Shown: piece after piece, positions 3,733 to 37,864 of the stretch
Layout: each line of letters opens with the position of its first letter
Numbering within the stretch: the stretch's first letter is position 1
Source of the DNA: Phoronis australis
Lineage: Eukaryota > Animalia > Phoronida
Assembly: GCA_002633005.1 (NCBI GenBank)
Contig: NMRA01000139.1
Location: 496,001-560,000 of the forward strand
Direction: 5' to 3'
Length of the DNA: 64,000 bases
Notes under the pieces: generated by a model
The model's input: only the letters and a program-made list of their open reading frames with translations
The model's database searches: none
What the model was told of the DNA's origin: nothing
Made by a program: the position numbers and the translations under genes

Positions 3733-5455
3733 ATGGCGGCAAGAACGAGGGTTAAATTTTGTGGATTACTGCCCCGGTCAGTCAAATGCTGCGAACCTGC
3801 AACAGAATGTTGCTAAACCGACGATACCACTGAGAAACTTCACAGAATCTGAGAATGATTCGGTTTCGGCCCATCAACTAACTAGTGATTCTGTGAACAA
3901 TGTAATCGTCGCCACCCTTCCGCTGAGCAGATCTCGAACGCCACCATCCATCCAGCAAGGTTCTGCAAGTCAAAACAAGGGGGAAAATTTCTGGTGCGAC
4001 ATCTGCAAATGCGAATTCAGTGGACCCGCCCCCGCGGCACAACACTATGCCTCCGGTAAACACCTGCAGAAAATGCAGCACGTAAGTGATTCGGCAACTG
4101 AAAATGACGCAGCAGCTAACAAACCACATCCGAGTGAGGAGAATAAAGCGTGGTGCGATGTTTGCAAAGTTCCTTTTACAGGGCCATTGCCCGCAGCGCA
4201 ACACTATGCCTCAATAAATCACCAACAGAAAGTGCAATATCAATCGAAAATTGAAGATGAACCGGACAGTGGTTCAATTTCCACCGTCTCGTTGTCGTTA
4301 ACACCAGGTCAACTTTTAAGCTGTCAACCTAAACATGATGGTCAGGGCTCGCTGCAGGAAACTGAGAGAGTGTGTAATCCATCTAGATCGAAAGATTTCT
4401 GGTGCAGCGTATGCAAAGTTCCACTAAGCGGACCGAAACCCGCGAGTCAGCACTACGCTTCCGTCAAACATCTTCAGAAGGAGGAATGTGAAATCGCAAC
4501 GCGGACCCTAACTGATCTTGCACAAACCTCCACGAACATCGGCATTTCTTCATCAGCAAAGTTTGATGGAACCGTGAAAAGTAAAGACACATGGTGTGAG
4601 GTTTGCAAGGTACCATTAAGTGGACCCTTGCCAGCCGCGCAACATTATTCCTCTCCAAAGCATAAAATGAAACTGCAACTCTGTAGCGAAGCCGAGATCG
4701 GAGCCACCTGCGTTGCCGAGGCTGCACAGGGTTACGGCAGTACGGTAGCAAACCCGTCGAACTCAATAGTGAGTGAAAAAGGAATTCTAACTTTGACTGA
4801 ACAGAACTCTCCTTTCACGCTGCAAGAAAACGATCCTTTGGTTGGACTAGAAGTGACAAAAGAAATCCCAACACATTCGTTTCCAACGAACAAGAGTAGG
4901 CAATCGTTGACGCTACCTGTTGGGTCAACCGTCGAGCGTGAATGCAGTGATGTGAAATTTGAAATGAGTAACAAGTGGTGTGGTCTGTGCAAAGTTCCCC
5001 TTACCGGCCCGGAACCCGCCAAACAACACTATGAATCAGCGAAGCACATAATAAGGTTCAGGGCCGTTTGTGACGGAGACGCCAATCCTTTGGTATCTAC
5101 TGGTGGGCTGACAAAGCAGGAGGTTGGTGGACGCCCGGATTTGTTTAGAGAGGACAAAACTCAGAGAAACTTATCTTTCAGAAGTTTTGATGTGTCTTTT
5201 GTTGAAAAAAGCGAGACGCAATCTCAAGGTGATGTGTCGACGCCTACCCAATTGATTGACGAGTGCTCCTTGAAAATGAATTCTTTACACATTAGCGAGG
5301 ACGTTCCAGAATCGTTACAGGCGAAAGTCGACCACAAAGGTCATCAAAAATTAGTAGGAATCGCTGCCTGCTTTAAGCAGGAGCCTCTCGATGATTCCGG
5401 TATTGGAAACGATTCGCACTTGTTTGATGAAAGCGAGGAGCCAGATTTGCGTTAA
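3733..5455 (+). CDS. Terminal exon of a protein with five JAZ/matrin-type (U1-like, dsRNA-binding class) C2H2 zinc fingers; ZNF346/ZNF385-like; 5' exons not identified
   Basis: Acceptor cttattttgcag ends at 3732 (phase 2); the frame is open to TAA at 5453-5455. Five repeats of WC-x2-CK-x2-[FL][ST]GP-x-PA-x-QHY-x-S-x-[KN]H (C-x2-C-x12-H-x5-H) are separated by Ser/Thr-rich linkers. Confidence 0.85.
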
Positions 5456-14871: not shown

Positions 14872-17800
14872 ATGTCGGTTGAGAGAGATCCAACATTTTG
14901 CAACCTTTGTAATATTCCTCTGTCTTCGTTTGCAGTGGCTACCCAACATTATGCAGGCTTAAAACACTCGAAAAAGGAGAGGGTAAGAGTCCAACGAAGG
15001 GGTGGATTGCATAAAGAAATTCCCGGGAAATCCCCGTTCCGTTCATACAGTATTGTCGAGTAAAATCCAATCCTCCGACTTTTCTAATTCTGTGTCTGGC
15101 CTCACAACTGGCAGTTATTGTCTACCATTGTTCAAACAGTTACTAAAACCTTGTCTTCAATGGGTGCCAGAGAACCGTTCGACTGGCAAAGTCACATCTA
15201 TTTTAGCTAATTTTTGTAAAGATTTCAGTTCTTGGCCTTGGGGTAGAATCTCAGAAGCCAAACAGTTAGAAAAACACTAATTTTAGTCCTTGATACATCA
15301 ATTTTTAGCCAAAAATGTAATAGCCGTTAAGCCATCGCTGAAGCTTAATTAAGACCATAGAACTTCAGGGATAGAGTTCTATGGGCAGATGAACTTGATC
15401 GGTGGTCCTCTAATTCCGAATCTGCTAAATTAAAACTGAGTTCTAGTGTTTATGTTATTTTCATCTCTATGGGAAAGTCTTTTTTATTGTCTGGATTATC
15501 ATGGAAGCCATTGATTGGTACGGAAATCTTGGAGAAAATCTCACTCAATAAATATGCCTTCAATCTCACTCAGTGATGATCAGCATNAGCCGAGATCACC
15601 CGACTCGGGGATCAAACCCGCGACCCCCATAAAACCGGCAAGCGTGCTAACCATTCAGCTAATAGGCAATTGCCCGTTAGCGAGTAGCTAACAGAGGCTC
15701 ATATAATTCACCGGAAGCACATCTACAACATTCCCCCCTTTCCTACGGAACGGGCACGCGACAGGAAGGTGAACACCAGGATGTCGCGCATACAGGTCAT
15801 CAACGTCCCTTGGTACCTTTACCACCACAACACAGGTGAACACAAGGTCGTCTCTCATACAGGTCCTTGACTCCTGGAACCTTCCACGCGCGCTGTCCCA
15901 AGGTCCGTGGGTACTAGTTGGCAGTGCTTCATCGGTAGATCATCCGTTTGCCAACTACGCCATTTGTAGTAACTTAAAATAGCCGAGATCACCCGACTCG
16001 GGGATCAAACCCGCGACCCCCATAAAACCGGCAAGCGTGCTAACCATTCAGCTAATAGGCAATTGCCCGTTAGCGAGTAGCTAACAGAGGCTCATATAAT
16101 TCACCGGAAGCACATCTACAACAGAACCGTTTGACTGGCAAAGTCACATCTATTTTAGCTAATTTTTGTAAAGATTTCAGTTCTTGGGGTAGAATCTCAG
16201 AAGCCAAACAGTTAGAAAAACATTAATTTTAGTCCTTGATACATCAATTTTTAGCCAAAAATGTAATAGCCGTTAAAAAAGCCATCGCTGAAGCTTAATT
16301 AAGACCATAGAACTTCAGGGCTAGAGTTCTATGGGCAGATGAACTTGATCGGTGGTCCCCTAATTCCGAATCTGCTAAATTAAAACTGAGTTCTAGTGTT
16401 TATGTTATTTTCATCTTTATGGGAAAGTCTTTTTTATTGTCTGGATTATCATGGAAGCCATTGATTGGTACGGAAATCTTGGAGAAAATCTCACTCAATA
16501 AATATGCCCTCAATCTCACTCAGTGTAGCCCATGATGGCAATCTCCCGTTCAGTGATTTTACCAGATGCAAAAGGTTGTGAGGGCGTGGTAACATCTAGC
16601 TTCTTTGTTAACTGCCAAGCACAGTATTTTGTCAGGTATGACAACAGGCAGGTCAATTATCTACCAGGCTTATTACAGACCACGTGTAAACACAATCAAA
16701 CCCAGAGGGAATTGGTACTTTCGGAGAGAGTAGATTGTCGTAACTTCAGTTGTAGTTGGGCGATTTTGCCCATTCAAAAACTAAACATGATCAGCATTTG
16801 ACAAAGATTTCAGAAATGCTATTGGTTTATGTTCAAATATATTATATAACTTAACTTCTATTTTAACAGCACAGCCCAGTCAGGCTAGATATTATTTGAG
16901 ATTAGAGCAATTATCGAACAAAAGAGAGCTGGCCTTCCAACCATCAATGTCAGAATGGAGTTAATCAGTCATGTAAGATATTGGCTACAGGGGTGTTCTT
17001 CCCAACTTGCTGTTGGGCTATAGAAACGAACAAGTTGGGAGCAACGGGAACACGCGTAATATACAGAGTCACCGCCCGACATGGGATTGATCAAGTTAAT
17101 GTGTGCTGAGCAACATGGATCACTACACCTAGGCCATTATTTTGTAATGTGTAGTCACAATGAGAATGATCTGTTGATGTCTTTTTAGGCACTCAGATCC
17201 CTGCAGATGAACAATGGACCTGCCACCCATGAAGCTCACCTCAGATCCCTGCAGATGAACAATGGACCTGCCACCCATGAAGCTCACCTCAGATCCCTGC
17301 AGATGAACAATGGACCTGCCACCCATGAAGCTCACTCAAAGTCACAAGGTATTGTAGAAATGTTGTTTAGTCTTCATTGACAGCGAATTTATACAAAGTC
17401 AAGTTTTTATACCCCATTTAAGTGCCATCTTTTGTTCAGTTGTGGAACCACAGGACTGACGGTTTCATGTTAGACCTGGTTACACATATCTGTACTGAAT
17501 TGCAATAAATTCTGTCCCGTTTGATCTGCACATAACGTGGAATTGTCGTGAGGACTTGACAGGGACCTCAGGGGTCTCACGCTCCATTGGCTTATCTACA
17601 TTAATTTGAAAGGGCTTTGTCCAGTCACATGTTGTGTGTCATAAAAGAGATGATGATACCTGCATCTGATGTGGCTAGTAGAACTACTCTCATCTATCAC
17701 ATTGGTGTAGACTCACATTAGAACTGTGGTTTTCTGTTGAGCCCAGACCGTCCGGAGTTGCACCATATACCAACTCCAGACCGTCTCTCACGACGATTTA

Positions 17801-20800
17801 GTGTTATGTATTGCCTTGTTTGTGGTGCGAGTATTTGACATGTATTATACCATACTCTCGTTGCATCCCCTTTAAAGAAGTATACGCACCATTGCAGTGC
17901 TGTCAAGACATATCTTGATCTGTTGTGAAATCTCCGACGGCAACACTCGTGACACAATGAGAAAGTGAATAAAGAACGCTGCTTCAAAGTACGGATCTAG
18001 CTATTCGAAAGCAATTAGCTTTAACATGAAGTTATTGTTATTATTATTGGCATTCCATTTTGGGTGTCATCTCTGTTGTCCAATATTTTTAGCTGCGGTG
18101 AGTGAAAGCCCTAATCATCATGAGAGGGAGTACTTCTTTGATCATACAACTTGGAGGGGAATGTGCAATGTGTGCAACGTAGAGCTGACATCAGTAAAAC
18201 TAAAAGATCAACATCTTAGTGGTAAAAGCCACAAGAAGAATCTTTTAAGGCAAGTACGGTAATTCTCCACATTCTTTGAACATTCTCCTTATTTTGCGTG
18301 CCAAAAATTGCCAGCAATATTAAATACTCACTCTCACATTTAATTGTTTACTTCAAGCAAAAACATAAAGTAGCCAAACCAAAATTTAAATTAGCATCTT
18401 TGCTGCACTAGTGAGGGGACATATTTTTGAGTTAGTAAGGGGACTGTTGTGGTCAATACTGTAATTTTCCAGTTTGAACACTGTCCTTGTTTTTCACACC
18501 AAAAATGGTCATCAGTATGAAATATTCATTTCTTTGTGTATTTCATGTGAAAAGTCGCAAAATAGCAAAACCAAAATTTTGATTAATTTAGCATTTTTGC
18601 AAGCTTAGTAAAAGGACACATTTTTGGGTTAAAGAGGGGTCACTTGAGGTCAAAGCTTTGTCAGTATCAATTTCAATTGATAATTATTTAACATAATTTT
18701 TTCCACAGACCTACCGGACAGGTATGGTAACAATTTCCAATAGAAAATGTGTGTCAGACTTTTTTAGTTTAACTCCAACTGATCAACATATTTGCAATTT
18801 TCATGTTTGTCATTAGTTTCAAAGCTATTAATTAGAATTGTGCAAGTTTTTCAAGATTCTTGTTTGAGATTAAAAAACCTGAACATCTGTTCAACATTTC
18901 CTTAATAATTTCACTAAAAAGATTTAGTATGCAGATATCCTCGACTCATGTCATTAACAAAATCAGTGGCATTGGTTTACTGAAGTTTCTCTTGAATGCA
19001 TGTTTTATGAACTGAGCCTGACATTAAGTTATGGAATTCCCTGTGCACCATTTTTGAATTTTAGTGTTGGCCAATGCCTCTTCTTGACCTCCCGAGGGTT
19101 TGTATGCTCTTCAAAATAACATGTCATTTTTTGGTAAGCAAAAATTTGTAACCAACTTTGTGAGAATAAAAGCTCCAATTCAATTTTTGTTTTGAGCCAG
19201 CTTTAAGCAGGGCAAATTGCAGTATTAAGTAAGTAATATCTACGTTTTATGAGGAAAAACACTGCGTATACGATTTTCATTCAAAACGAGGTGGTTCAGA
19301 TATTGGGAGTAGTCTTGCCTGAAACATGATGGTAAATGTAAGGTCAACAAAATATGTTTTTTAATTGATAGTATTAATTTTGGTATATGTTTAAATTTAC
19401 AGGTGGTCAGCTAGTCAAGTCAGTACGTCAACACCACCTGAGATGTTGCAACTTCACAATGTAAGTGAAGACCATCAAAAAAAAGCCACAGGTTCCATGC
19501 TGCCAGTTGATTCAACTCAGTGGCTGATGTGCGAAGTTTGTGATGTAAAGTGTAACTCGGCGGAACATCTTGAAAATCACAAACGAGGAGCGCCCCACTC
19601 AAAAATGGTTAGTCGACTGGCGGCAGGACAAGTTTTTAATGCAACTGGGAGTCAGGAATTAGCTGGCAGAGCAGAGACAATATATCGATGTGTTGAAAAA
19701 AGTCAACAGTCATTAATTGGTCAACATGTTTCCTCTTCAACATCACCTGATGTGCAGAGACTGCACACTCCTGCGCTCCTTTCATCTAAGAGTTGTGTAG
19801 GAAGTAGCGACTCACCCCTGCAGTGCACAGGTTCCATGCTGCCAATGGATTCAACTCAATGGCTGTTGTGCGAAGTTTGTGATGTAAAGTGTAACTCGGC
19901 CGAAAATCTGGAAAATCACAAACGAGGAGCGCCCCACATGAAAATGTTGTGCCGACTTTTGGCAAGACAAGATTCTAATGCAACGGAGAGAGCAGAGATA
20001 TCACATCAATTCAGTAAACGAGATCAGCTGGGAGGAAGTTATCATGACGCTGTCTCACCAACGCCACCTAGTGCTCAACTGCCCACTCCTGTACTCCAGT
20101 CACCAAACAGTCATGAAGGTAGTAGTGACACCTGGTGTGATGTTTGCAAACTCCAATTCAATGGCCCACAGCCAGCTGCGCAGCACTACCAGTCTGCAAA
20201 GCACTTGCAGAAGTTGCAGCTTAAAGAAAGTGGGGGGAAACGTGATGCCGTGTTTTGTGATGTGTGCGCAATTTATGTTGACACTCATGAGATGTTGGAG
20301 TTGCATAAGAACAGTGATAAGCACAAAAGAAAAGCTGCTAGCTCTTTCCTGCCTGTAGATTCAACACAGTGGTATAATTGTGAACTATGCAATGTAAAAT
20401 GCAACTCAGCAGAACATCTGGAAAAGCACAAGAATGGGACAGCACACTCAAAAATGTTGGGTCAAATGTTGGCAATGCAATATCCTTATGGAACTGAAAA
20501 CCATGAACAGAATGATAGAGCAGAGGCGGTGAATCAGAACACTATGAGAAGTCAGCAGAGGACAAGTTATCCCGTTGCTTCCTTATCAAAATGCTCTGCT
20601 GAGCAGCAAGTGCAATCTCCTGTGCTCCAGTCATCTGACACTAATGAAGAAAGTAGCGACACCTGGTGTCACATTTGTAAACTAGCCTTTACAGGCCTGT
20701 GGCCAGCAGCAGAGCATTACCAGTCTGCGAAACACAAACAAAAATTGCAGCTGAAGAAAAATGGGGGAAAACCTGATGCAGTATTTTGTGAAGTGTGTGC

Positions 20801-23800
20801 AATTTATGTTGATACAATCCCAATGTTAGAGGTACACAACAGAAGTGTGAAGCATCAAAGAAAACTTGCTGGCCCCACACCACCAGTTGATCGAACTCAG
20901 TGGCATCTGTGTGAGCTGTGTGATGTGAAATGTAACTCTGCAGAGCTCTTGGAAAGTCACAAGAAAGGAGAGTCACACATGAAAAGGTTGCAACAACTGT
21001 TGGCAAAAGAGGATTTCCCTGCACCTTTAAACCCTGGTGTGGATGGTGAAAAAGAAGTCTTGTATCAGCGCAATGAAGAGAGCCAGCAGGTTGCATCTCG
21101 CCTGATCCCGGCACAAGCTTTGGAAGTGGTAGAGAATAATGACTTGGAGAAGCTTTCTACGTAATAAGTTTATAATATCAACCAGTATCACTACAGACTT
21201 CAAAATGAAGTGTTGCCACTATGTCGCAATGTTGATTGGAAAATGTAAAATGTAGAACTCATTTAAATTAATTTACAAATCCTACCCAGTCACGTTTAAT
21301 GATATATCAAGCTACGGAAAGAGACATGAAAATAACATCTCGCCAGCTTATTAGCAAGTTTATCGTTGACTGTAATGCATTGCACAAGATAACTTGGCCT
21401 CACAAATTATATTCGTAGCTTAATCACGATTGCTTATTTAAAAGGTTATTTTCGGTTTTCAATTGGTGATGATGAAACAGTGTGCAATCCAGATGTGTAG
21501 AGGGCCTTCTATTGCTTCTTTGATTTTTATTTTGAATAAACAGAGTACCTTATGTTTAACATTGCAGATCTCACTATCAGACTACACCATCTTCTCACAG
21601 AACTGAGCTCTTAGTCAGCAGTAATGCCAGAGTCACTGCGCCATTGATGCCATCAGATGGTGGAGCAAGTCTGGTCACCTGTGAAGTAAATCATAATGTT
21701 GATAGACAGGAAAAGAATGCACGTGAATCCGCTATAAAACTAGACATTGTAGATCCTCTGTTGGACTCTATCAAGTCTATTATTAAACCAGATCCTCTGT
21801 TGAATTTGTCAACCGAGCAGGAAGCAATGGAGGCGTCAGTGAAACCTGGAGAAAGTCAAGGAAGAACTCAGTTGTCTTCACCAGAATCCTTTGTGGATGA
21901 ATATCCAGAAGATGAACAATTGGACTCGTCTAGAACATTGGTGAGTGAAGAAGTCAAAGTATGTTCGCCGAGAGATTCTTCTGAAAGCCGTTTAGATTCC
22001 TCCAAAATGCTGAATAAGGTAAATTATAAAGAGGTTCAAACGAATTTGTCAAAGATTTCGGAAAATGAAAGCATCAAAGGGAGACTAGTGGAAGAAACAA
22101 AGTCACCCGTGAATGGAAGTAGCTCAAGGAGTCAGTTAGAGTCTATCAAGGCATCTGTAAGTGAAGAGGCCTGCAGAGAACGTAGCTTTGAGTCTTCTGA
22201 GAGGCAAAACTTGGAACATGGCTCCTATACCAAAATAAGTAGAGCTATGGCAAACCTGAGTATTAATGAGGCATCAAGTTTGGAAACAGTAACAGAGGGA
22301 CTGAAACGTACTTCTCAAGAAGATGATCTTACTCAAAGTCCATCTTCGCCGAGAGACATGCTGGATTCACGTGAAGAACTCCTCTCTCAGCACTGTGGGG
22401 TTGCAAGCTGCAGCCGCCCAACAAGAAATGAAACCGATGACTGCAAAATGTCTTCAAACAAACTAGCAGCAGGTTTTGAACTGAATACAGACAACCAGTG
22501 CACAGATGACCCAGAGACCAGTCTCACCTCTACAGATGAGCCAGAGGCCAGTCTCACCTCTACAGAGGAGAATGATATAGTTACTGATTGTTCAAATAGT
22601 GTAGTGGCCACTTCTGCTCAGGCTTCCCAAACTCCATTGGATCCAACACCAGATGGCAGTGTGCCACCACTGGTTAAAGACCAGCAATGCGACGACCCTT
22701 TTCAAAGTCTTATCCGTACCTTTCCTCGAGACTACCAAGTTGAAGTCTTTGAGAAGGTTTTTGCTACCGCTGGGGATTCTGTCCTGTTTTTACCTACTGG
22801 TAAGTATGACACATGAGGAATTCTAGCTTATTGGGCTTGGCTATTCAAAACCCATAGGTGGCAGTAAACCAATTATCTTTTCAGCCAGGACCATAAACCC
22901 GTTGTTGCGCTGTGTTTACTTTCACAGACCAACTGGGGTAGTCGAATGGTTGAGAGTAGGGTTCACAAAGAACTACTTTTACTGACCTTGCAAGTCAATT
23001 TCAAAAAGCCTATTGTGTGTGAACGAGATCCATTATTTGCTATGGTCTGCAAAATTCTAAGCCACTAATGGGACCAGTTACTTCCTCCAAACCCAACCTG
23101 CGTTTGTGAATGTTGAAATCGTCAGTGTGCATCACCTTCAAAGCAACGAGATTACTCTTCGTATGTAGTCGCTTACTTACTCTGTGGTTGGCAGCCTTTT
23201 TCGGCAAAGTCTGTGCTCCAACTCTCCACATGATAGTTAAGACTGGAATACTTAGCACAAAGATTAACATTGCCATCTCCGTTTAGAAATGTATGGTACA
23301 AAGCAAATCGCTTAACATGTTATTTTCAATGCCCAATACACATCAGTTTATGTTTTTGGAAGAATTGGCGTGTCTAATAAGTCGTGCATTGTTAGTAACA
23401 AAAGTTGTTGTAAAAAGACTCGCAATCAAAACCAGATTCCAACTTACCTTGATTCTGATTATAATTTTATGATCTTAAAATATTTTCTTGATGAACGAAT
23501 TTCCTTTAATACAAAGTAAATTTTGGATCGCCAAACTTTATATGAGTGTGGCAAAATAAGATTTTTGTGAAGGAACAAGTGCACCGAATGGAATAGTATT
23601 ATCTCTGAACATTATCGTAGTTAAGTAAAAATCCAGCTTATGTTGACTGAAGCACATCATACATGTAGGTCTTACTAATCTGATGAAGATAGTGTCACTT
23701 CTCAACCGGATTCATCACAGTTTTAATTCATCTTGAAAAAATTTTTTATAATTTTTTATAGCTTGCCTTTTAGTATTTGCCTACTACGAGTCGGCAAAAC

Positions 23801-26800
23801 AAATTTGGGTTCACCGAATTATTTTTCTGTTACAACCGCCTACTGAAACAGAGGTACCTCTGGAAAAATGCATAATTTTCTTTGGTTACTCAAAAGTAAA
23901 CTCTAATTAAATAAATGATTGAATTAAACTCTTTTGAAAACAAATAAGCAAATTAATTTTCGTCGTACTATGGCAGTTATTTTTTTCAACACTCTTTGAT
24001 TATATTTTCCTGTTAAACAATTATCATATGCCGGTGTAAGTATAAAAAAATGATTTTGAGTACTTAAGATTTTAACATTTTGGCTTCTAAACAAAAAGGT
24101 ACACAGTTAATTTTCTTTTATGTCTTATTTTGATACCCATCATGTATTCTGTAGAATGACAAACACATTTAAGAGATGACATACTTTGTTTTTGAACTTT
24201 TTAGCACAACCAGCGTCAGACATTGGACCTCAAAAGCGATGACTCAATAGTTTAAAACTAACCATTATTGAAGTGCTCGCGTCCAGTACAGCTAAACACA
24301 AGAATATTTTAAACCGAGTATTCTAATGTTCATGCACTCTAGTTACTCTCATACACCTGTATGTAGCCTACATTCATAAAGGGATTTATGTGAGGGCTTG
24401 CCCCTCAGATGCACCAAATGAAAAACGCTACTGTTATGCCATCTGCAGGCCTTGAACATATTTCTTTCGAAAACCGATTGACTCCACTTTTGGCATCCGT
24501 CAACCACTAGTTGCCCCACCTTGGCTGCAAACTTCCTAATTGTTCCCCATAAGCAATGGTCACATGTCCATGTGGGAGACCGGGTCACTTTCTGAGACAA
24601 GTTGCTTTCTGGATAGGAATGTATGGTGTCAGAACACCTTGTTTTGTGCGACAATAGACATTATTATTCATCCAGATGAATGACAAGTTGCAAAAAAAAA
24701 TAAAATCTCATTTTTTGGAATTTAGCATAAAAATAAATTTCCTCATGTTGCAGAGTCGCTTGGCTTTTTCTACTGGGGATTGATGACTGACTGGTTCCCG
24801 TGAAAATTTCATCACCCTGTGCTGGTGTTCATTCATCGACAACAACTTAAGGCCCCTGGACCATGAGTCAGACAACTTAAATCTGATACCTGTATGTCTA
24901 TTCAAAGGGAGTTTTGCATTAAAAATTCCGCATGGATACTGGCAGAGATTTTTAACATACGGGACAGCAACAGTTGTGGAAAGATTGTGCGCTCCTTGCA
25001 TTCCTCGTGAGGCCGAGGGAGTGAGGCTCTGCAAACAGACCAACCAGGGTAACCACAGTTATTCAGAGTCCCTGTCAAATGTTCTTTCTTTGCACTGACC
25101 ACCTCTGTGCCAAATCTGTTTGCACCACTGCCAAAGTTTTCAGTGCAGAGAAACAGCATTTGACAGAAGCTTCATGTTTTTGCTCACTTACAAAGTCTCA
25201 CACTCATCCTCATATAAGAGTGCAGAACATTATCCTCCACTGTGAATGTCATTTTATGTGAAAAATATTTGAGGATCTACGTAGTTTTTACTATAACGTT
25301 TGAATAGCGCACGCGCTCAGGGGTAATGCACCCGTGCGGGTGAACCTAGGTGCATGCCGAGGACAAACCTCTGCCTGGTGATGTCAGTGGATGTGGTGTA
25401 TGAAGATATCACGTGACTGTGACTTTTGTGAATATTCGTATATTGGTCAGACTGGTCAGAAGGCACATGGCTCTGACCGAGTGCAGCATAAATGCCACTG
25501 GTTTAAACTCTGCAGTGTAACAGGGGACACTCGCTTGAGACAGCAGACATAAGGATGATGGACAGAGAAAGTTCTTGGTTTGAGCGGAGGTTTCAGAGAG
25601 CTGTCTAGGTTAAAGCCAAGAATCCCTCTTGGAATAGACACAGAGGAGTCAAATTTAAGTTGTCTAACTTGTGCTTCCTTATCTTGTTGTCTATGAAAAG
25701 TGTCAGAGAGCAGTCAGTCATCAACATCCAGTAGGAGGCAGGTGGCTATGCAATTTCAAGAATTTTATTTTATAGTAAGTAGCATAAGTTGTAATTAAAA
25801 TGTTTCTTTTAACTTGTTATGTGGTGCTATCAGAAATATAAGCAAACTGCCTTGCCTGTTTTTGCCATACATTCAAAGCTATGTTACATTTGTTGACTGA
25901 ACCATTGCTTCTCAAATTTAGGAACCGGCAAAACTATTGTTACCACCATGATCGTGTCACATATGTTACGCAACAACCCCGCCCATCAAGTCCTCATTCT
26001 GGCTGCCGGCCTTCCAGTCGTCTTTAAATATGTTGAAGCTATGAATAGGGAAATTGGGAACTTAGAAATTCAAAGGTGAGTATAGTCAGATTCAGTCAGT
26101 TTTCACCAGTGAGCAATCAAATTAGGACTGTTTTGAACTTATGTTTATGTGATACATAAGTTTTCTACTATTGCTATCGTTTGATGAAACGATACCTTTT
26201 TCATACTTACACATGTGTTAATTTGAGTTGTTATTTCACAGAATTGTCATGTTTAAATCAAAATTGAATGTGACTAGCATGTCCGCTCATTGCACCTTCC
26301 ATGCTGTTGTGTGAAACTACTCTATCAATTTAACCGCTCAGTATTCACTTACCAGACGAGTTCTGTTTTCATCACCTGACTGATTTTACGACTGCGCAAA
26401 AGCTTGATATCCTGTCAGCATGCCATCTTTTTGATCGCATCACGTGACCTAACAAATACAAGTCCGAAAAAGTTTCTGCCCGCGACCGGGACTCGAACCC
26501 AGGACCTTCTGCTAACTGTGTAGATGCTCTAGCCACTGAGTCATCGGGATGGGACCACTGGTCAAATCCAATCGGACATCTTACCCTTGATCTCCATTTT
26601 GGTCAAAAAGATGGTGTGCTGACAGGACAAAGTATTCGCAACATATTTCCATGCCTCACTAAAAAGATATATTTATACAATGAGTATATTGTTTAAAGTT
26701 TAAAGGAAGCTCGGTGAGTGGTCAGTTCTCTGTTTTCCATGAAGAATCTCAAAATGTTCACTCCCAATAACGTCTAGTCCCTGTCTGACTCTAGCTTAGA

Positions 26801-28688
26801 CTGAACTCACGAGGCAAGATGCAGTTGATACAATAGCATTTCTGAAATCTTCATCATATGGTGATCATGTTTAGTTTTTGAATCGCCAAAATCGCCCTAC
26901 TGCAACCGAAGTTATGACAATCTATTCTTCCCGAATACACCAATTCACTCTGGGTTTGACTGTGTTCACAGGTGGTCTGAAATAAGCCTGGTAGAAAACT
27001 GACCTGCCTTTTGTTATAACAGACAAAAGACTGTATTTGGCAGTTAATAAAGAAGCTAGATGTTATCACGCACTCACCCCCCCCCACGTCTGGTTAAGTC
27101 ACTGAACAGGAAAACGCTGTTATGTCGCCACTTCGTTGCTTTTTGTCGCTTCCCAAGTATAGCGATGAAGTGGCTAATCTTTTTTTTCTAACAGAACGGA
27201 CTGCGCTGGTATAAGGCGGGAGAGAAAACTAATCATTGCTGGCATGTGTACAGGGCTAAAGAGTGTTTGTGAAGAACCTATTCGGGCCCAGGACATCATG
27301 GTGACCACACCAGGTATGGTTTAAAGTTGGAGTCCTCTTCAATTCTAGAGATGAGACATTTTTATCTAGTTCAAATGGTATGTGCCCATGCCAACACAGT
27401 TCATTCCAGGTGTTATTTATGGGAAATTTGGTCTCTGTACTCAGATTTCCCTGTAAACATACATTATTAAAAAGTCTGAAATGTAGTTGCTTGCACTTGT
27501 GTTTCAGATCACTTCAACCATTTAGCTAGCAGCGAACAAACTGCATGGCAGGCGTTCTCACTGGTGATTCTTCTCGATGCTGAGACATATTTGACTGACA
27601 ATCAGCTTGAATTTCTGTTAAAACGACATCACAACAGTGTTCCGTCAGATATCCGCCCTAAGATCGTCGCATTCGCTGGTCTTCCTTGCGACCTTTGCAC
27701 TGGCAGTCAACCTGGACAATTCCTAAAAGATCTGAAACAAGCTCTAGGAAACTGTGATGTCATTGGTGTCGGCAAAGAGGGTAAAAGAGAGATGGGAACG
27801 TTCTTGCTGTCAAAGAAACCAGACTTCACCGTGTCTGATCGTGACAAAAGTGAGAAGAATTTGAGAAACGTTTTGAATGAATATCTCGTAGCTTCCTATT
27901 CCCATTTGGCAAAGAAGATTGGAGTAATTCCTTGTACGGAAGTTGAAGAAGAAGTGTCCGTGTTGCTTTCCATTGTGGACAATCCTGACTGGGCATTTGA
28001 CTCTATGGGAGATATGGAGAAATCTCTTCTTCTTCACTGTGGTGAAGTTGCTTCTTCTTTATCGTTACTTCGGAACTTCGGTATCGGCTTAGCTCTCGAT
28101 GCCTTAAGGGACATCTTTCATGAAGATACTGCAAATGTAAAGCCTTTGCTTAAGCAGGACTTTCCTTTGTATCAACAAGTTGTAAAATTCATCTCTGGAA
28201 TGGTGGGGAACTCTGACACTACTGATCAATGCAGTGGCCTCCTGGAGCAGACCCGTGAGCTGACTAAAAGCAATGGAAGAGAGAATCTTGTGCTGCTTCT
28301 GGTGGAAAATCCTGTTGTCGCTGCCCAATTTGGAAAAAAAATGAAAGAGTCTAACGAGCGTGAAGGAGATAAAAGTCACTGTATTGACTTCATGGTTGCA
28401 GTCGACAGCCACGAGTCACCTGCCTCGAGTGGTGTCATTATTGCAACGTGTGCGCGTTACTTAAATGGAACTGTTTTGCGAAAATGCAAGCTGATATCAG
28501 TTGTCAATCCACGACATGCCAAGCACTACTTGGCTCAGGTTAGAGGCCATGATATCAATAATAATTGTGCCGTGAAAATCACTTGTAACGATGACGATAC
28601 AATTAGTTTACTGGAAAGGTTTCTGGAAGCAGAGGAAACATTAGTCAAAGCTGATGATTTAGAAGCTTTGATAAGTCACACTGAATGA
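14872..28688 (+). CDS. Multi-zinc-finger (10 JAZ/matrin-type C2H2) protein fused to a degenerate RIG-I/Dicer-class DExD/H helicase, ~1626 aa
   Basis: Eight phase-consistent GT-AG exons: 14872-14982, 17189-17348, 18093-18258, 19403-21160, 21568-22799, 25922-26075, 27195-27313, 27508-28688 (4881 nt, no internal stop). Fingers: 1 in exon 1, 1 in exon 3, 8 in exon 4. Helicase motifs: FPRDYQVE (Q), LPTG|TGKT (Walker A across the exon 5/6 junction), DIMVTTP, FSLVILLDAE (II), PKIVAFAG (III), LVLLLVEN (IV), VIIATC...GTVLRKCKLI (V), LAQVRG (VI). Confidence 0.85.
15588..16123 (-). mobile_element. TRIM (miniature non-autonomous LTR retrotransposon) with tRNA-like sequence in its LTRs
   Basis: LTR 15965-16123 (159 bp, TG...CA). 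The second LTR, 15588-15730, is identical but truncated by the N. On the minus strand, PBS TGGCGTAGTTGGCA (15949-15962, tRNA-Ser type) lies 2 nt after the 5' LTR and PPT AGGAAAGGGGGGAA (15731-15744) abuts the 3' LTR. The 234-bp interior is non-coding. Confidence 0.85.
16124..16525. other. Probable second-haplotype copy of 15172-15575
   Basis: Near-identical direct duplication with a few SNPs and small indels, on either side of the single N at 15587. Confidence 0.75.
16545..16822. repeat. Interspersed repeat; inverted copy at 26833-27110
   Basis: Co-linear reverse-complement similarity, also visible as the similar spurious ORFs 16532..16801+ and 26854..27087-. Confidence 0.8.
16850..17050. 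repeat. Interspersed repeat; inverted copy at ~37963-38155
   Basis: Blocks ttcccaacttg-tgttgggctata, aacaagttgggagcaacggg, ccaaccatcaa-g-cagaatggagttaat and gagattagagcaattat recur as reverse complements at 37963-38155. Confidence 0.75.
17192..17335 (+). repeat. 48-bp coding tandem repeat x3 (LRSLQMNNGPATHEAH) forming most of exon 2
   Basis: Three perfect copies between acceptor ctttttag (17188) and donor g|gtattg (17348). Confidence 0.9.
26410..26627 (-). mobile_element. TIR-bounded element containing a tRNA-like sequence (26477-26549, minus strand)
   Basis: TIRs tcctgtcagcatgccatctttttgatc / ggtcaaaaagatggtgtgctgacagga. Inside on the minus strand: A-box TGACTCAGTGGCTAGAGC, an arm with an AGT-centred loop, B-box GGTTCGAGTCCC, and a T5 run a few nt downstream. 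Confidence 0.7.
26833..27110. repeat. Interspersed repeat, inverted partner of 16545-16822
   Basis: Reverse-complement similarity over about 280 bp. Confidence 0.8.
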
Positions 28689-29370
28689 AAACGTTAGGTG
28701 CAATATTATTATCTATTTAGTAGCTTTAACACTTTAAGTTGGTGCACCAGTAGAGCTCTTGTGATTGTCACTCGGTGACAAGTGGGACATTATTTATAAT
28801 ATTTATAAAATTATTCCCAAAGACTGATCCATGTTGTGGTTGAAGTATATTGACTGAGGGACACAACGTTTTCATTGAATGCAATAGAACTGGGCAGCGG
28901 TTCTAATACTTTTAACAAAGTTGAACTCAAAATTCGTTTTGTCCTTTTCTATTCTAGCTCTGTACGAACTCAAGATAAGTTTGTAGGAGCTGTAATACAA
29001 GGATTACCAAATGGGAATTGGGACTAGAAACCATATGTACTTGAGCCTCAGACTAGCTACTAGCCACTTATCTTGATATCACCCAAACGAGGAATAGATA
29101 ATGCCTATAACCACTTCAAGTTCCTTTTAGTAAGATTAGACTCCGGCCCAAGGTGTTCGTCTTTTTCCTGCTCTATGAAGTGCAATCTGATCTGATTCTA
29201 TGATAAGGTTATGAAATTGCGCATATATCCAGAACTGAACAGTTACGCTTGGATCTCTTGTGTTTACTTCTGTAGGCTTTTGATACCAATCATACTCTTG
29301 TTGTGTTATGCAATAGCAAAGTTATGAAGTTGACTAAAGGTTGTCTAGTTGTGCCGAGTGCTTCAAATTA

Positions 29371-33400: not shown

Positions 33401-36400
33401 CCTTGAATTAGTTGTAATTGTTCATGTTTTATGGTCAACTACAATTCTCCATAATCAAAAAAGTGATCAACAACCGATCCGACGAAATGCAGGCCACTGA
33501 CAGACACGGAGAAGCTTCACAGCCTCATACTTGGTATCAAAGGAGTACTTTCAATCTTCACTACCGCAAGCCACTTCCGAAGGATTATGGTCTCTGGAGG
33601 AAATCGAAAAAAACGATATACCCGCAGACTGAAGAACCACTGACGTCGCTGGATATAGACCGATTAAGACGGCAAAAAGATTAATTTAATCGGGTGTCAT
33701 TTTCCTTTAAATCTTTCGCTAACAAAATTTTCACGCAAGTGAACGAGAAAGCGTGCACTGTTTACCCCCAGGGTATTTAGGGTATTCCTCCGCTTTGTGG
33801 CGCCGTAATGGAGTGAACTAAGCTAGTCGCTATTCATGGCCTTGGCCGAATGCGTTTTCATGGAGGAAATTGCGATGGTAAACAACACGCCTGTTTAGCG
33901 TAAAAAATGAATAAGGCAAACAACCGACATGACGATTTTCAAATTTGAAAAGTAAATATTGGCCGTCTTCGACATCTTTAAGTCGATGAATTATAAGAGA
34001 AATTAGCGAATAGGATTTCTTCAGCAATGCGGCTACGCCACGCGCGTTAATTTATGAATCTATGAGGACGAGTTAGTCACAGTCTGGCTCAAGCTCGCTT
34101 AGGCGTTGCGACAACAAAATCCCGTCGAGGAAGTGAACTTTTAATTTAGACTACTCACCGAAATGTTCCCATGTCTCTCATAAGAAATGGTTTCTGGGTT
34201 TGCAAAAATGTTGCCGAGCTGTTCGATATTCCCCGAGACCATGCTCGGCGCACAGAACGTCACGTCGTCTACAGCGAATTTCGAAGGCCTGGTTTGAGGC
34301 AGTAAGGAACTATCATTTCTTTCAAAGCCCTGACTAAGGAGTAATTTAAAACCACAACGGTGAGTGATCTCAATAAAAAGTTTGTTGTTTTTTGGGACTG
34401 AAGGCGAGATGGTAGCTTTTTAAAGTTAACCACGTTCCCTCTGCAAACCCCTAAAAACATAGAATGCCTACCTTCAAAAGTATAGAATGGAGGATTACGT
34501 GCTCACGAAACTCTACCGCTACAGCTGTGTCTCTATTCTTGCCCCTTTCCTTTATTTCTAGTCTCACACCGTCGTGCTCAAACAAGGGCTCTTTCCCCAG
34601 GCTCCTTTTCTTCGTGTCGTCAACAACAAGAAACGCCCTGGCGTGTTTCCCAATTTGCTTCACTTTAGAGCATGTGACTCTGTGTTCGTAGTGGCCTTTC
34701 TTCCTGTTATACCGGTGCTTTCTTACTTTCCTAGTGTTCACATTTATGATAATGCCACCGCTGTCATCTGCGACCGATTTCTTTCGTGCCCATTTCCTGT
34801 TTATTGGACTTCCTGATTGTGACAAGTATCCCTTATATTTATTTCTTTTGCGCTTCTTATTCCGTTTGTGTTTTAAAATGTGGTGGCTACTGATATTTAT
34901 GACGACATTTCTATTTGACGTACGCAAGGGCGGTTTCTTTGTTGTCGAAAGCATGGCTGTCGTCTGCAGAAGTTCCAGGGTCGTATTTGGGGAAAACGGT
35001 GAAACTGTTTGATCATGTCTTTCATGAGAGGTGGTTGTTGACAAAAGTTTTTGCTTTATTACTAACTCTCCATTTTTGTGCATTTCAATCACCATCTGTT
35101 CTTTGCCATTTTCATCGACTATTACGAAATCACCACTCGTATTGCTTTTGCCCACAGCTTCTGTTGTGACACTGCGTTGAGTCGTAGAGGAAGCCACTGA
35201 CAAAGCGTCTGTTGACTTGGTTTGTATACTGGGGCTTACTATTTTCTTGATCACCAGTTCTCCACTTTTGAGTTTTTGAATGACAAGTTGTTTCTCGGCT
35301 TTTTCATTTACTACAACCAAATTGTTTACGTTTGTGTTGTTGCTGGCTGCTTTCAAAGAAATAATTTCTTTTTTGGAACTGGGTGAGAGTGTTGAGGCGG
35401 GTGGTGGAGGTACAGTTGACGTATTAGCAGATGTTTTTATGATAGGGACTGCTTTTTCTTTAACGACTAATTTGCCATTATCATGTGCTTGAATCACAAT
35501 TTGTACTTTGTGATCCGTCGTTTCTGGTGGCAGAGCCATTTTTGTTGTAGCAGTGACAGTGGGGAACATTGGTTTGTCTCTACTTAGTTTACCCTCCTTC
35601 AGATTCCTAACCCTGGTGTCACTTTTCACCAAAATTTTGCCATTTTCTACTTCTTCGACAACGACTTCTCGTTGATTACTAACCTCAAGCCGCGGTGTGG
35701 TGACAGTGATAGAAGCCGACTTATTTTCAGCAGTTGCCAATTTCTTCAGCTCAATCTGTTCCCCCTTCACACCCGTTTTAATCGCAATCGAACCCTTTTC
35801 TCCACTTTTTATTACAATTTTGCTCTGAGGTTGTGTAGTCGTCTTCAATGACGGATTGTGTGACGTTGATCTTGTAGTACGCAGACTTTTGATGTTGTAC
35901 CTTCTAGCTTTAATAACAATTTCTCCGGTCTTTAACGTTTTGATTTCAATCGGTCCATGATCAGGACGTCGGACTACAAAATCCCCGTTCTTCATTTCTG
36001 CCACCAAGTCATCCTTTACGGAGGTGACTTTTTTACCAGGCTGGTTGTTTTTGTTGCTTACCGCACTCTCTGAACTGAATTGTGAAGCACTGGGGCGCCC
36101 GAGGTCTCTTGACGTTTGAATCGATGTCACGTTTTTCAATTTAGTTGCTTTCAGATTTACTAAAATTGTCGCGGTACTATTTATTGAAGATAGATTTGCT
36201 GACTGATTGAAACCCCTTGATAATGACGAACTGGAGGATATTATGGCCGATGTTAGTGTCGCTGATGCCGATAATGTGGCTGTTGGCGATGGTGTCATCG
36301 TAGTCTCTGTTTCTTGCGTTAAATTTTTAGATGGTGACGTTGCTGTTGATAAAATTGTTGTTTTTGTCATTGCTGGTGTTGTAGTTGTTGTTGGTGTCGT

Positions 36401-37864
36401 AGTCGTTGTTGGTGTCGTAGTCGTTGTTGGTGTCGTTGTGGTTGTTGGTGTCGTAGTCGTTGTTGGTGTCGTAGTGGTTGTTGGTGTCGTAGTGGTTGTT
36501 GGTGTCGTAGTCGTTGTTGGTGTCGTAGCCGTTGTTGGTGTTGTAGACGAAACCGTTGTTGACGCTGTGTTTACTTCTCGTTTGAGCAAACGCCTTATTC
36601 TCAGCAAACTGATGATGCCTCTGCTGACGAATTAGGAATATTTATTAAATTTTGTTGGCATTTCATCATTATACATTCGTGCAAAACTTGTTCACCATTT
36701 TACGGATAATAAAACTCGATGCGTGCGCGTCTCGGAGTACGTATGTTTCAGCCTCAGGGTACGATACCTCGGCCTCTAATCCAGAAGGTGTAGCGCAAGC
36801 ATTCGACTGGCATTTGGGTAGACTGGACTGCTGATTGCTCTGCTCGAAACATTACTATAACAAAGTTATACATATCTCTATAGATCGCACATCTGCGCCC
36901 ACTGGCGGTGCTGTTCGGATGACCGTAATCACGGCACGCAGTCCTATGTTTAACTCACGCTCTCTATAGAATGTCAAATCCCAGACTACATTAAAATGGG
37001 TAACATTTTCTGCTTGTAACATACATTATGCACGTGCATGTACGGTGGCTGGGAAAGGATTTACAAGTTTAGCGTCCGATTGACTCGACCGCCCGACTTA
37101 TTTGTCGAGAGCCTGTTATAACTCGGGAGCTTGGGTTAGGAAAAATAAATTTCCGTATCCTTTCCCGTACGCACGTGGATGGATTTGGGGACCGTATTCA
37201 CGATCAACTTTCATGGCTGAGCCTGTCGTTGAAGTACCTCAGTTCTGGACTCATGGCACGAAGTGCAAAACGGTTACTGCCAAAGGGAGGCGGCGCGACA
37301 CCCATAGCGACCGGCGGCACGTGCAAGGAAGAGGGAGCAAAGGTGGTGACAGTTCTGGGAAGCGGCGCGAAAGGGTGGCGACTGGTCTTTGACGACACCG
37401 TTTTATTCCGCACATACAGGCGTCTGAGTACATTGTAATGCAACAAAGAATATTTGTGTTATTCTTACACCAGGATTTAAGGCTATTTAGTTGGGACCTG
37501 GGGGTAATATTATAGTCCTAGGTTGGGGCAGACGGCTCAGGGATACTCGTCCAAAGAGTCTGTAATCCGAAAATTCACAGGTCGTAATATTTTTCTTCGC
37601 ATTTTTTAAACCCAATTCACGATCCCGTATTGGATCGTAGTCCTGTAGGATGCATAATGTCCTCAGGTATACTGTGGTAGTAAGAGTCTAAGTTTCATAG
37701 GACCTGCAGTTCGAAAAAACACCTCGGACTAACAGATCCCGCGTCGGACCACGAATGGTAAAACAGATAACATGTATGCAAATATACCTTCGTCGTGTCT
37801 GAGTGTACGGCGGGAAGCAAAGGAAATAAAAGACCGCTATCAGTTGAAAGAATTTTCGTTTCAT
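30455..37864 (-). CDS. Secreted mucin-like protein with a C-terminal divergent discoidin (F5/8 type C) domain, ~914 aa
   Basis: Phase-consistent model: 37864-37788 (signal-peptide-like MKRKFFQLIAVFYFLCFPPYTQT), 37423-37238, 36623-34472 (PTTTTT repeats, Thr/Ser-rich, basic block, AVAVEFREHVILHSILLK), 32124-32002 (GLDIG...VNKFVLEIKRMDGLWQHLYYKGRVK), 30661-30455 (IFNV...LPYDVTTKGIRIYPEDWTITPYLKLGFMGC). The IRIYPxxW...LxLxxxGC ending is characteristic of discoidin domains. The 5' exons are less certain. Confidence 0.7.
32845..33210. repeat. Repeat with short palindromic (cctatagga-type) arrays at both ends
   Basis: Clusters of ~11-12-bp cctatagga/ccaatagga units at 32845-32970 and 33135-33210. 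Confidence 0.6.
36374..36545 (-). repeat. 18-bp coding tandem repeat (PTTTTT) x~9
   Basis: Repeated gttgttggtgtcgtagtc units. Confidence 0.9.

What the first reader, a model, noticed from the sequence alone, without database searches (positions are those of the whole stretch)
25922..28688. The helicase looks catalytically dead: intact Walker A but eroded motifs Ia, II, III and VI in an unbroken ORF
Seen: motif II reads FSLVILLDAETY where RLR/Dicer have F[ST]LxxxDECH. Motif III reads IVAFAG (vs IxGLTAS), motif VI reads LAQVRGHDI (vs QxRGRAR, arginine fingers lost), and motif Ia reads LILAAGLPVV. The Q-motif and GxGKT are retained and there are no stops or frameshifts over about 480 codons. Inference: a maintained pseudo-helicase that may bind nucleotide or RNA without hydrolysis, acting as a decoy, scaffold or brake. 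This is conceptually LGP2-like but more degenerate.
Basis: partly seen in the sequence, partly recalled or inferred. Interest (0 to 1): 0.7.

Follow-up and report, generated by a model that had tools for sequence, protein, structure and literature searches.

The report
Zinc-finger-armed dead RNA helicase
An animal gene that is spliced and expressed joins ten zinc fingers, predicted to bind double-stranded RNA, to a Dicer/RIG-I-type helicase that has lost nearly all its ATP-splitting and RNA-gripping residues but kept its ATP-binding loop, so it is likely a non-catalytic regulator derived from a little-studied invertebrate helicase family.

Summary
The motif erosion is real. The stretch is the last three exons of an 8-exon, 1626-aa animal gene model: 10 matrin/JAZ zinc fingers, an acidic linker and a Dicer/RLR-type helicase with no CARD, CTD or RNase III. 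Stranded RNA-seq shows expression and 5 of 7 splice junctions. The helicase belongs to an animal zinc-finger helicase family (molluscs, Lingula, Ptychodera, corals; profile E 5e-40), not to the RLRs (AU p 2e-5). All 90 full-span relatives keep DExH; this copy has LDAE. It has also lost motif III, two motif VI arginines and the RNA-gripping motifs Ia, IIa, IV, IVa/b and V. The Q-motif/Walker A segment stays at family-level identity (11 of 12 invariant columns, against 22 of 59 elsewhere), and the hydrophobic core and predicted fold persist. Neutral decay would have broken the frame (0 of 100 simulations survive 20% divergence). Against strong constraint today: pN/pS is 0.72-0.94 among RNA-seq variants, no equally degenerate orthologue was found, and a helicase-less splice form occurs. 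Verdict: likely a lineage-restricted pseudo-ATPase; its role is untested. New variant of a known kind.

The parts
14872..14982 (+). Exon 1 (predicted): ATG and zinc finger 1
   Evidence: GT donor, in frame; zf-met E 6e-4, just under the Pfam cut-off; outside the range on which reads were laid
17189..17348 (+). Exon 2: three perfect 48-bp repeats (16-aa unit)
   Evidence: junction to exon 3 in 6 reads
18093..18258 (+). Exon 3: zinc finger 2
   Evidence: zf-met E 1.7e-5; junction to exon 4 not listed
19403..21160 (+). Exon 4: zinc fingers 3-10 (matrin/JAZ type, internally duplicated)
   Evidence: zf-met E 1.7e-30, zf-C2H2_jaz E 8e-25; finger comparison; junction to exon 5 in 2+4 reads
21568..22799 (+). 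Exon 5: acidic linker (pI 4.5), Q motif (22724-22738), first half of Walker A
   Evidence: junction to exon 6 in 3+3 reads
25922..26075 (+). Exon 6: rest of Walker A (intact), eroded motif Ia
   Evidence: weak ResIII and Hef hits; junction to exon 7 in 3+5 reads, skip to exon 8 in 2+2 reads
27195..27313 (+). Exon 7: motifs Ib and Ic; sometimes skipped
27508..28688 (+). Exon 8: eroded motifs II, IIa, III; Hel2i; Hel2 with eroded IV, IVa/b, V, VI; first pincer helix; stop. No CTD
   Evidence: 91 RNA reads, all on one strand

Best explanation
This is an expressed, spliced member of an animal zinc-finger/Dicer-type helicase family whose helicase has lost its catalytic and RNA-contact motifs, so it is likely a pseudo-ATPase that would hold double-stranded RNA through its ten zinc fingers and act as a non-catalytic regulator. 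Shown: gene structure, expression, family membership, motif loss, and selective retention of the Q/Walker A segment and hydrophobic core. Inferred: the core still folds as Hel1-Hel2i-Hel2 and binds ATP or ADP without hydrolysing it; it cannot clamp or translocate on RNA; the JAZ/matrin fingers bind dsRNA. Most speculative: it works in the dsRNA (virus or transposon) response as a competitor or adaptor for an active family member or its partners. My odds per step: dead ATPase about 0.9; helicase part kept under selection about 0.7; this regulatory role about 0.5.
For: Gene model in frame with GT-AG at all 7 introns. Stranded RNA reads and 5 of 7 junctions. Family profile E 5.5e-40; group profiles score 175.6 bits for bilaterian zinc-finger helicases against 39.5 for RLRs; tree 98/97, AU p 2.4e-5 against an RLR placement. 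90 of 90 full-span relatives keep DExH and 84 of 90 keep motif VI; this copy keeps neither. It keeps 33 of 71 family-invariant columns: 11 of 12 in Q/Walker A, 22 of 59 elsewhere, Fisher p 8e-4. Segment identity to the family is 0.53 (family among themselves 0.58) for Q-Walker A, but 0.23 vs 0.52 for Ic-II and 0.27 vs 0.68 for V-VI. 104 of 120 core columns stay hydrophobic, against 30% elsewhere. AF2 pLDDT 76.7; Z 17.8, rmsd 5.7 over 341 residues to the duck RIG-I helicase. Neutral simulation: 0 of 100 runs reach 20% amino-acid divergence without a stop. Motif II Glu and the motif VI arginines are the hydrolysis elements (PMC12146746, PMC10159624, PMC4622095 passages). ZNF346/JAZ-type fingers bind dsRNA (PMC10957929 passages).
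Against: 31 variants in exon 8 split 22 non-synonymous to 9 synonymous, pN/pS 0.72-0.94, not different from neutral (p 0.39-0.84), and include changes at a family-invariant Cys and inside motif VI. They may partly come from a paralogue or a divergent allele in one run. No equally degenerate orthologue was found, so long-term conservation of the dead state across species is not shown. 4 of 12 junction reads at the exon 6 donor skip exon 7, giving a 1200-aa form without most of the helicase. The AF2 model rests on an alignment of active relatives; alone the sequence gave pLDDT 35. Motif VI and the Mg-binding Asp also help bind ATP, so binding may be weak. An active paralogue in this genome could not be checked. 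Read depth is low. No function is known for the parent family.
Confidence: 0.5

Rival explanations
1. Relaxed appendage: only the zinc-finger array matters, and the helicase tail is kept merely foldable, or has recently been released from selection and is decaying.
For: pN/pS near 1; terminal branch 3-5 times the median; exon-7-skipped helicase-less form; a helicase-less ORF with similar fingers lies upstream; no degenerate orthologues found.
Against: Frame intact after a divergence that neutral drift cannot survive; Q/Walker A segment at 92% of family-level identity, which foldability alone does not obviously require; no stop or indel among 31 variants, though this has little power.
Confidence: 0.25
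2. Decoy: the dead helicase mimics active dsRNA helicases to absorb viral antagonists, and its Hel2i/Hel2 surface diversifies under pathogen pressure.
For: Fold kept with chemistry lost; 25 of 31 variants fall in 28130-28432, several as multi-base codon changes; variant positions tend to be less conserved columns (0.415 vs 0.494, p 0.10).
Against: pN/pS is not above 1; the clustering coincides with the best-covered part of one run, so it is not shown to be real; expression is low; that viral proteins target Hel2 of RLRs is recalled, not tested here.
Confidence: 0.15
3. Slow or non-canonical ATPase using the Asp or Glu of LDAE and the one remaining motif VI arginine.
For: Perfect Walker A and Q motif; acidic residues remain in motif II; QxRG kept.
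Against: Simultaneous loss of the D-E pair, motif III, Va and two arginines, plus the RNA-coupling motifs; none of 90 relatives lacks DExH, though they were found with an intact query.
Confidence: 0.07
4. Recent transcribed pseudogene or assembly artefact.
For: pN/pS near 1; low expression.
Against: No stop or frameshift in 1626 codons; independent RNA reads carry the same eroded exon (57 of 91 reads at 99% identity or more); the divergence is far too deep.
Confidence: 0.03

Closest known systems
Animal zinc-finger/DExH helicases annotated as Dicer-like or uncharacterised (Lingula LOC106154762, Haliotis 'dicer-like protein 1', Octopus 'dicer 2-1', Ptychodera, Bulinus, Orbicella, Oculina)
   Same: N-terminal zf-met/JAZ fingers (13 of 16 full-length members), collinear helicase, end about 50 aa after motif VI, no CTD or RNase III; same clade.
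   Different: Bilaterian members keep DEAH/DEVH, GLTAS and QxRGRAR; this copy lost them, is only 21-25% identical to members that are 33-49% identical to each other, and has more fingers (10 vs 1-9).
LGP2 / RIG-I-like receptors
   Same: Hel1-Hel2i-Hel2-pincer fold; no CARDs, like LGP2; possibly a regulatory role.
   Different: LGP2 hydrolyses ATP and has a CTD (PMC3914343 passages). This protein has no CTD, has zinc fingers instead, has no catalytic motifs, and is rejected from the RLR clade. Lophotrochozoan RLRs with grafted N-termini (PMC8998645) are a precedent for domain swapping; 'zinc finger' does not occur in that paper's main text.
ATP-independent Dicer helicases (vertebrate Dicer, Drosophila Dicer-1)
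   Same: Same helicase family acting without hydrolysis, structurally or as a partner platform (PMC10159624 passages; PMC9645528 abstract start).
   Different: They sit inside an RNase III enzyme, and vertebrate Dicer keeps its ATPase motifs; here the motifs themselves are gone and there is no nuclease.
Utp25/Def pseudohelicase (PMC9539457)
   Same: SF2 fold kept, catalytic motifs lost, N-terminal disordered region.
   Different: DEAD-box derived, conserved and essential in ribosome assembly, with only partial motifs left; this protein is Dicer/RLR derived, lineage-restricted so far, and keeps a perfect Walker A.
ZNF346/JAZ-type dsRNA-binding proteins
   Same: Arrays of widely spaced CxxC...HxxxxxH fingers with basic second helices.
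   Different: No helicase-derived module.

Membership tests
RIG-I-like receptor (RIG-I/MDA5/LGP2) | Hel1-Hel2i-Hel2-pincer helicase fold | tested here: met
   Predicted model of exon 8 aligns to RIG-I 350-774, Z 17.8, rmsd 5.7, 341 residues; the model depends on an alignment of relatives
RIG-I-like receptor (RIG-I/MDA5/LGP2) | C-terminal RNA-end-binding domain (RIG-I_C-RD) | tested here: not met
   Stop 50 codons after motif VI; no Pfam hit in exon 8
RIG-I-like receptor (RIG-I/MDA5/LGP2) | Helicase falls in the RLR clade | tested here: not met
   AU p 2.4e-5 on 23 sequences, long branch caveat; 39.5 vs 175.6 bits
RIG-I-like receptor (RIG-I/MDA5/LGP2) | Intact DExH, motif III and motif VI | tested here: not met
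Dicer | [quoted passage not shown] | tested here: not met
   ORF ends at 28688; no such Pfam hit in the 7 of 8 exons scanned (the 39-aa exon 7 had no hit, exon 2 was not scanned)
Animal zinc-finger/Dicer-type helicases (informal group, defined) | N-terminal zf-met/JAZ fingers on the same transcript as the helicase | tested here: met
   chain of junction reads exon 4-5-6-7-8; no single long read
Animal zinc-finger/Dicer-type helicases (informal group, defined) | Helicase in this clade, ending about 50 aa after motif VI | tested here: met
Animal zinc-finger/Dicer-type helicases (informal group, defined) | Intact ATPase motifs | tested here: not met
   33 of 71 invariant columns kept; so a derived, degenerate member
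Pseudohelicase (Utp25 type) | Helicase fold kept while catalytic motifs are lost | tested here: met
   (prediction only)
Pseudohelicase (Utp25 type) | No ATPase or unwinding activity in an assay | not testable with these tools
   needs biochemistry
Pseudohelicase (Utp25 type) | Maintained function (purifying selection or phenotype) | tested here: inconclusive
   Open frame and conserved core against pN/pS 0.72-0.94; no orthologues

The most novel reading that the evidence does not exclude
An uncharacterised animal family of dsRNA helicases uses zinc-finger arrays (plus Z-alpha in corals) in place of the RLR CARD/CTD, and has repeatedly spawned catalytically impaired copies: fully dead here, motif VI-eroded in stony corals. 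This copy is a nucleotide-sensing, RNA-blind pseudo-ATPase that regulates invertebrate dsRNA immunity as a brake or viral decoy.
Probability: 0.2. Interest if true: 0.78.

Novelty: new variant of a known kind. Interest (0 to 1): 0.5.

Why it matters
Validated pseudohelicases are few, and my searches found none described as a free-standing Dicer/RLR-type protein with its motifs erased but its P-loop intact. The protein separates nucleotide binding from RNA clamping in this helicase fold, which can be tested directly. It also points to a parent family (fingers plus helicase, no CTD or RNase III) spread over cnidarians, lophotrochozoans and a hemichordate and labelled Dicer-like in databases without having Dicer's nuclease domains; it may be an unrecognised invertebrate dsRNA sensor. 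If the helicase tail is only decaying, it is a minor lineage-specific curiosity.

Tried and rejected
Exon 8 alone gave no Pfam, NCBIfam or PDB sequence hit and no hit in two word-indexed protein searches or in metagenome contigs. The full HMMER search gave 4 weak hits, one of them a spurious ankyrin protein that I dropped (P0002). None of 6 window ORFs is in the protein collection. No whole genome is held, so paralogues could not be counted. Single-sequence AF2 was uninformative. The careful 44-sequence tree did not finish in two runs, so I used the quick tree and a smaller careful tree. ESM Atlas gave only generic helicase clusters. Earlier findings of the scan: nothing. No indexed RNA holder was listed; expression evidence comes from laying raw reads. 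Clustering of variants in Hel2i/Hel2 was considered as evidence of diversifying selection and left as inconclusive because of coverage. The idea that the family shares the large last exon (several contig-predicted fragments start near motif II) could not be checked. The JAZ structure paper (PMC3985865) is not held.
Full report
What is in the sequence. The window is animal genomic DNA with introns. The stretch 25922-28688 holds three exons, not one ORF. With five upstream exons they give an in-frame model of 1626 aa with GT-AG at all seven introns and a single terminal stop. Residues 10-671 carry ten CxxC...H...H fingers that match zf-met and zf-C2H2_jaz (exon 4: E 1.7e-30 and 8e-25). An acidic linker (pI 4.5) follows, then a helicase-like part from residue 1117 to the end. 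The Q motif lies in exon 5 and Walker A is split by a 3.1-kb intron.

Expression. Three raw RNA-seq runs carrying the same species label as a contig set that shares 5% of the words were laid on 17100-29300. Exonic reads lie on one strand. Junction reads support exon 2-3 (6 reads), 4-5 (2+4), 5-6 (3+3), 6-7 (3+5) and 7-8 (1+1 and one contig). The exon 3-4 junction was not listed and exon 1 was outside the range. On exon 8, 91 reads were laid, 57 of them at 99% identity or more. Mean depth is under 10 in the fifth of each run that was read. Four reads join exon 6 to exon 8; that form would stop at 1200 aa, leaving the fingers, the linker and only the start of Hel1.

What family it belongs to. 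Exon 8 alone is too diverged for Pfam, PDB or word-indexed searches. A full HMMER search gave four weak hits; three are DExH helicases, and one from Bulinus has a zf-met finger before the helicase. Searching with it returned 136 proteins, 120 listed. The top group has zf-met/JAZ fingers plus a helicase and no RNase III or CTD, from Haliotis, Octopus, Mya, Lingula, Ptychodera and stony corals. A profile of 29 of them, built without the window protein, aligns to it end to end at E 5.5e-40. Group profiles score 175.6 bits (bilaterian zinc-finger helicases), 90.7 (coral members), 85.6 (Dicer and others), 56.1 (helicase-RdRP fusions), 39.5 (RLRs) and 39.2 (Hef). A careful tree of 23 sequences places it in the zinc-finger group at 98/97 on a branch of 2.27 against a median of 0.66, and rejects an RLR placement at AU p 2.4e-5. 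A quick tree of 44 sequences agrees. The trees used 23 and 44 of the 91 full-span sequences, and the long branch makes the exact position unsure. Its fingers resemble those of the Lingula and Ptychodera members, and it ends 50 aa after motif VI like most members.

Is it dead? All 90 full-span relatives keep DExH and 84 keep the motif VI arginine pattern; the six exceptions are the coral members. These were found with an intact query, so the set is biased to intact proteins. In the window protein motif II reads LDAE for DEaH, III reads AFAGL for GLTAS, V/Va has lost its EG-D residues and VI reads QVRGHDI for QiRGRAR. The motif II Glu positions the attacking water and motif VI is the arginine finger (PMC12146746 and PMC10159624, passages). 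Mutating motif II or III impairs RIG-I ATPase (PMC4622095 and PMC4517655, passages). Motifs Ia, IIa, IV and IVa/b are also lost, IVa with a 12-residue deletion. That Ia, IV, IVa and V contact RNA is general SF2 knowledge (recalled; in RIG-I the T697/E702 region is an RNA-binding site). So the core probably neither hydrolyses ATP nor clamps RNA.

What was kept. Of 71 family-invariant columns the protein keeps 33: 11 of 12 in Q/Walker A and 22 of 59 elsewhere (Fisher p 8e-4). Residues 1117-1167 are 53% identical to the family, whose members are 58% identical to each other there. Other motif-bearing segments fall to 39-58% of the family level, and Hel2i is too variable to judge. 104 of 120 hydrophobic core columns remain hydrophobic, against 30% elsewhere. 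With 31 relatives as alignment, AF2 models exon 8 at pLDDT 76.7; the model matches RIG-I and DRH-1 helicases at Z 17.8 (rmsd 5.7 over 341 and 7.4 over 370 residues; Foldseek agrees). It covers the second half of Hel1, Hel2i, Hel2 and the first pincer helix. The model leans on the active relatives; without them pLDDT was 35.

Maintained or decaying? In simulations of unselected point mutation, 6 of 100 runs reached 10% amino-acid divergence without a stop and 0 of 100 reached 20%. The frame was therefore under selection while the motifs eroded, which excludes a simple recent pseudogene. Present-day variation points the other way: 31 variants in exon 8 are 22 non-synonymous and 9 synonymous, pN/pS 0.72-0.94 depending on the transition weight, not different from neutral. 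None is a stop or an indel. Two touch conserved places (motif VI and an invariant Cys), and overall they fall on slightly less conserved columns (p 0.10). Many come from a divergent haplotype or paralogue in one run. I found no equally degenerate orthologue, and the genome is not held.

How it most likely works. The fingers are of the ZNF346/JAZ kind, which binds the dsRNA backbone without sequence preference (PMC10957929, passages), and each has 2-5 basic residues around its second helix. I infer that they carry the RNA binding. The helicase core would fold, bind ATP or ADP through its Q motif and P-loop, and serve as a protein-interaction module. The likeliest role is a competitor or adaptor for an active family member in the response to dsRNA; this last step has no direct evidence. 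Rivals are a relaxed appendage to a finger protein (0.25), a viral decoy (0.15), residual ATPase (0.07) and a pseudogene (0.03).

Comparison with what is known. It works like a pseudoenzyme but is not an RLR or a Dicer. LGP2 is an active ATPase with a CTD (PMC3914343, passages). ATP-independent Dicer helicases are the nearest precedent within the family (PMC10159624, passages). Utp25 was described in 2022 as the first fully validated pseudohelicase (PMC9539457, first quarter of the text). Lophotrochozoan RLRs show N-terminal domain grafting, with no mention of zinc fingers in the main text (PMC8998645, passages); its supplementary domain tables were not read and may list such proteins. Tardigrade Dicer copies with helicases only are noted in PMC12505628 (passages). 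Eight searches, judged from listings and abstract starts, showed no paper on this zinc-finger helicase family or a dead member; the library lacks most subscription journals.

Verdict. Observation partly confirmed, interpretation partly supported. It is a real, expressed, very likely dead helicase with a selectively preserved nucleotide-binding segment, in an apparently undescribed invertebrate family. It is known from one lineage only and its function is untested. New variant of a known kind; interest 0.5.

Noticed in passing
window 3734-5455 (+): Separate ORF with five zf-met fingers most similar to fingers 5 and 8 of the main gene, ending in a stop with no helicase; possibly a tandem finger-only paralogue or an alternative 5' exon.
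   Followed up: partly
proteins P0018-P0022, P0025, P0132-P0134, P0156-P0158: Stony-coral members of the family have two fingers, some a Z-alpha domain (PF02295 on P0019, P0022, P0038, P0049), intact DEAH and GLTAS, but lack the last motif VI arginine(s) and often the VGHG loop: an independent partial erosion.
   Followed up: partly
proteins P0033-P0070: The next closest relatives of the family include helicase-RdRP (PF05183) fusions, hinting at a link to RNA silencing; tree support for a sister relation is weak.
   Followed up: partly
window 26075 to 27508: Exon 7 skipping in 4 of 12 junction reads at this donor; frameshift gives a 1200-aa form whose stop lies in the last exon.
   Followed up: partly
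window 17192-17335 and 22502-22566: Coding tandem repeats (48 bp x3, 30 bp x2.2); reads that go back 60 bases at 22561 suggest copy-number variation in the linker.
   Followed up: no
window 34451-36631 (-): 718-aa Thr-rich, mucin-like ORF with no Pfam match.
   Followed up: no
window 49690-53014 (+): Exons that look like a phosphotransferase (hydroxylysine-kinase-like, label recalled); the last one hits NF004799 at E 1e-8.
   Followed up: no
window 17530-17810, 22860-23020, 26430-27120: Intronic interspersed repeats with high read depth on both strands; no tRNA gene in the window.
   Followed up: no
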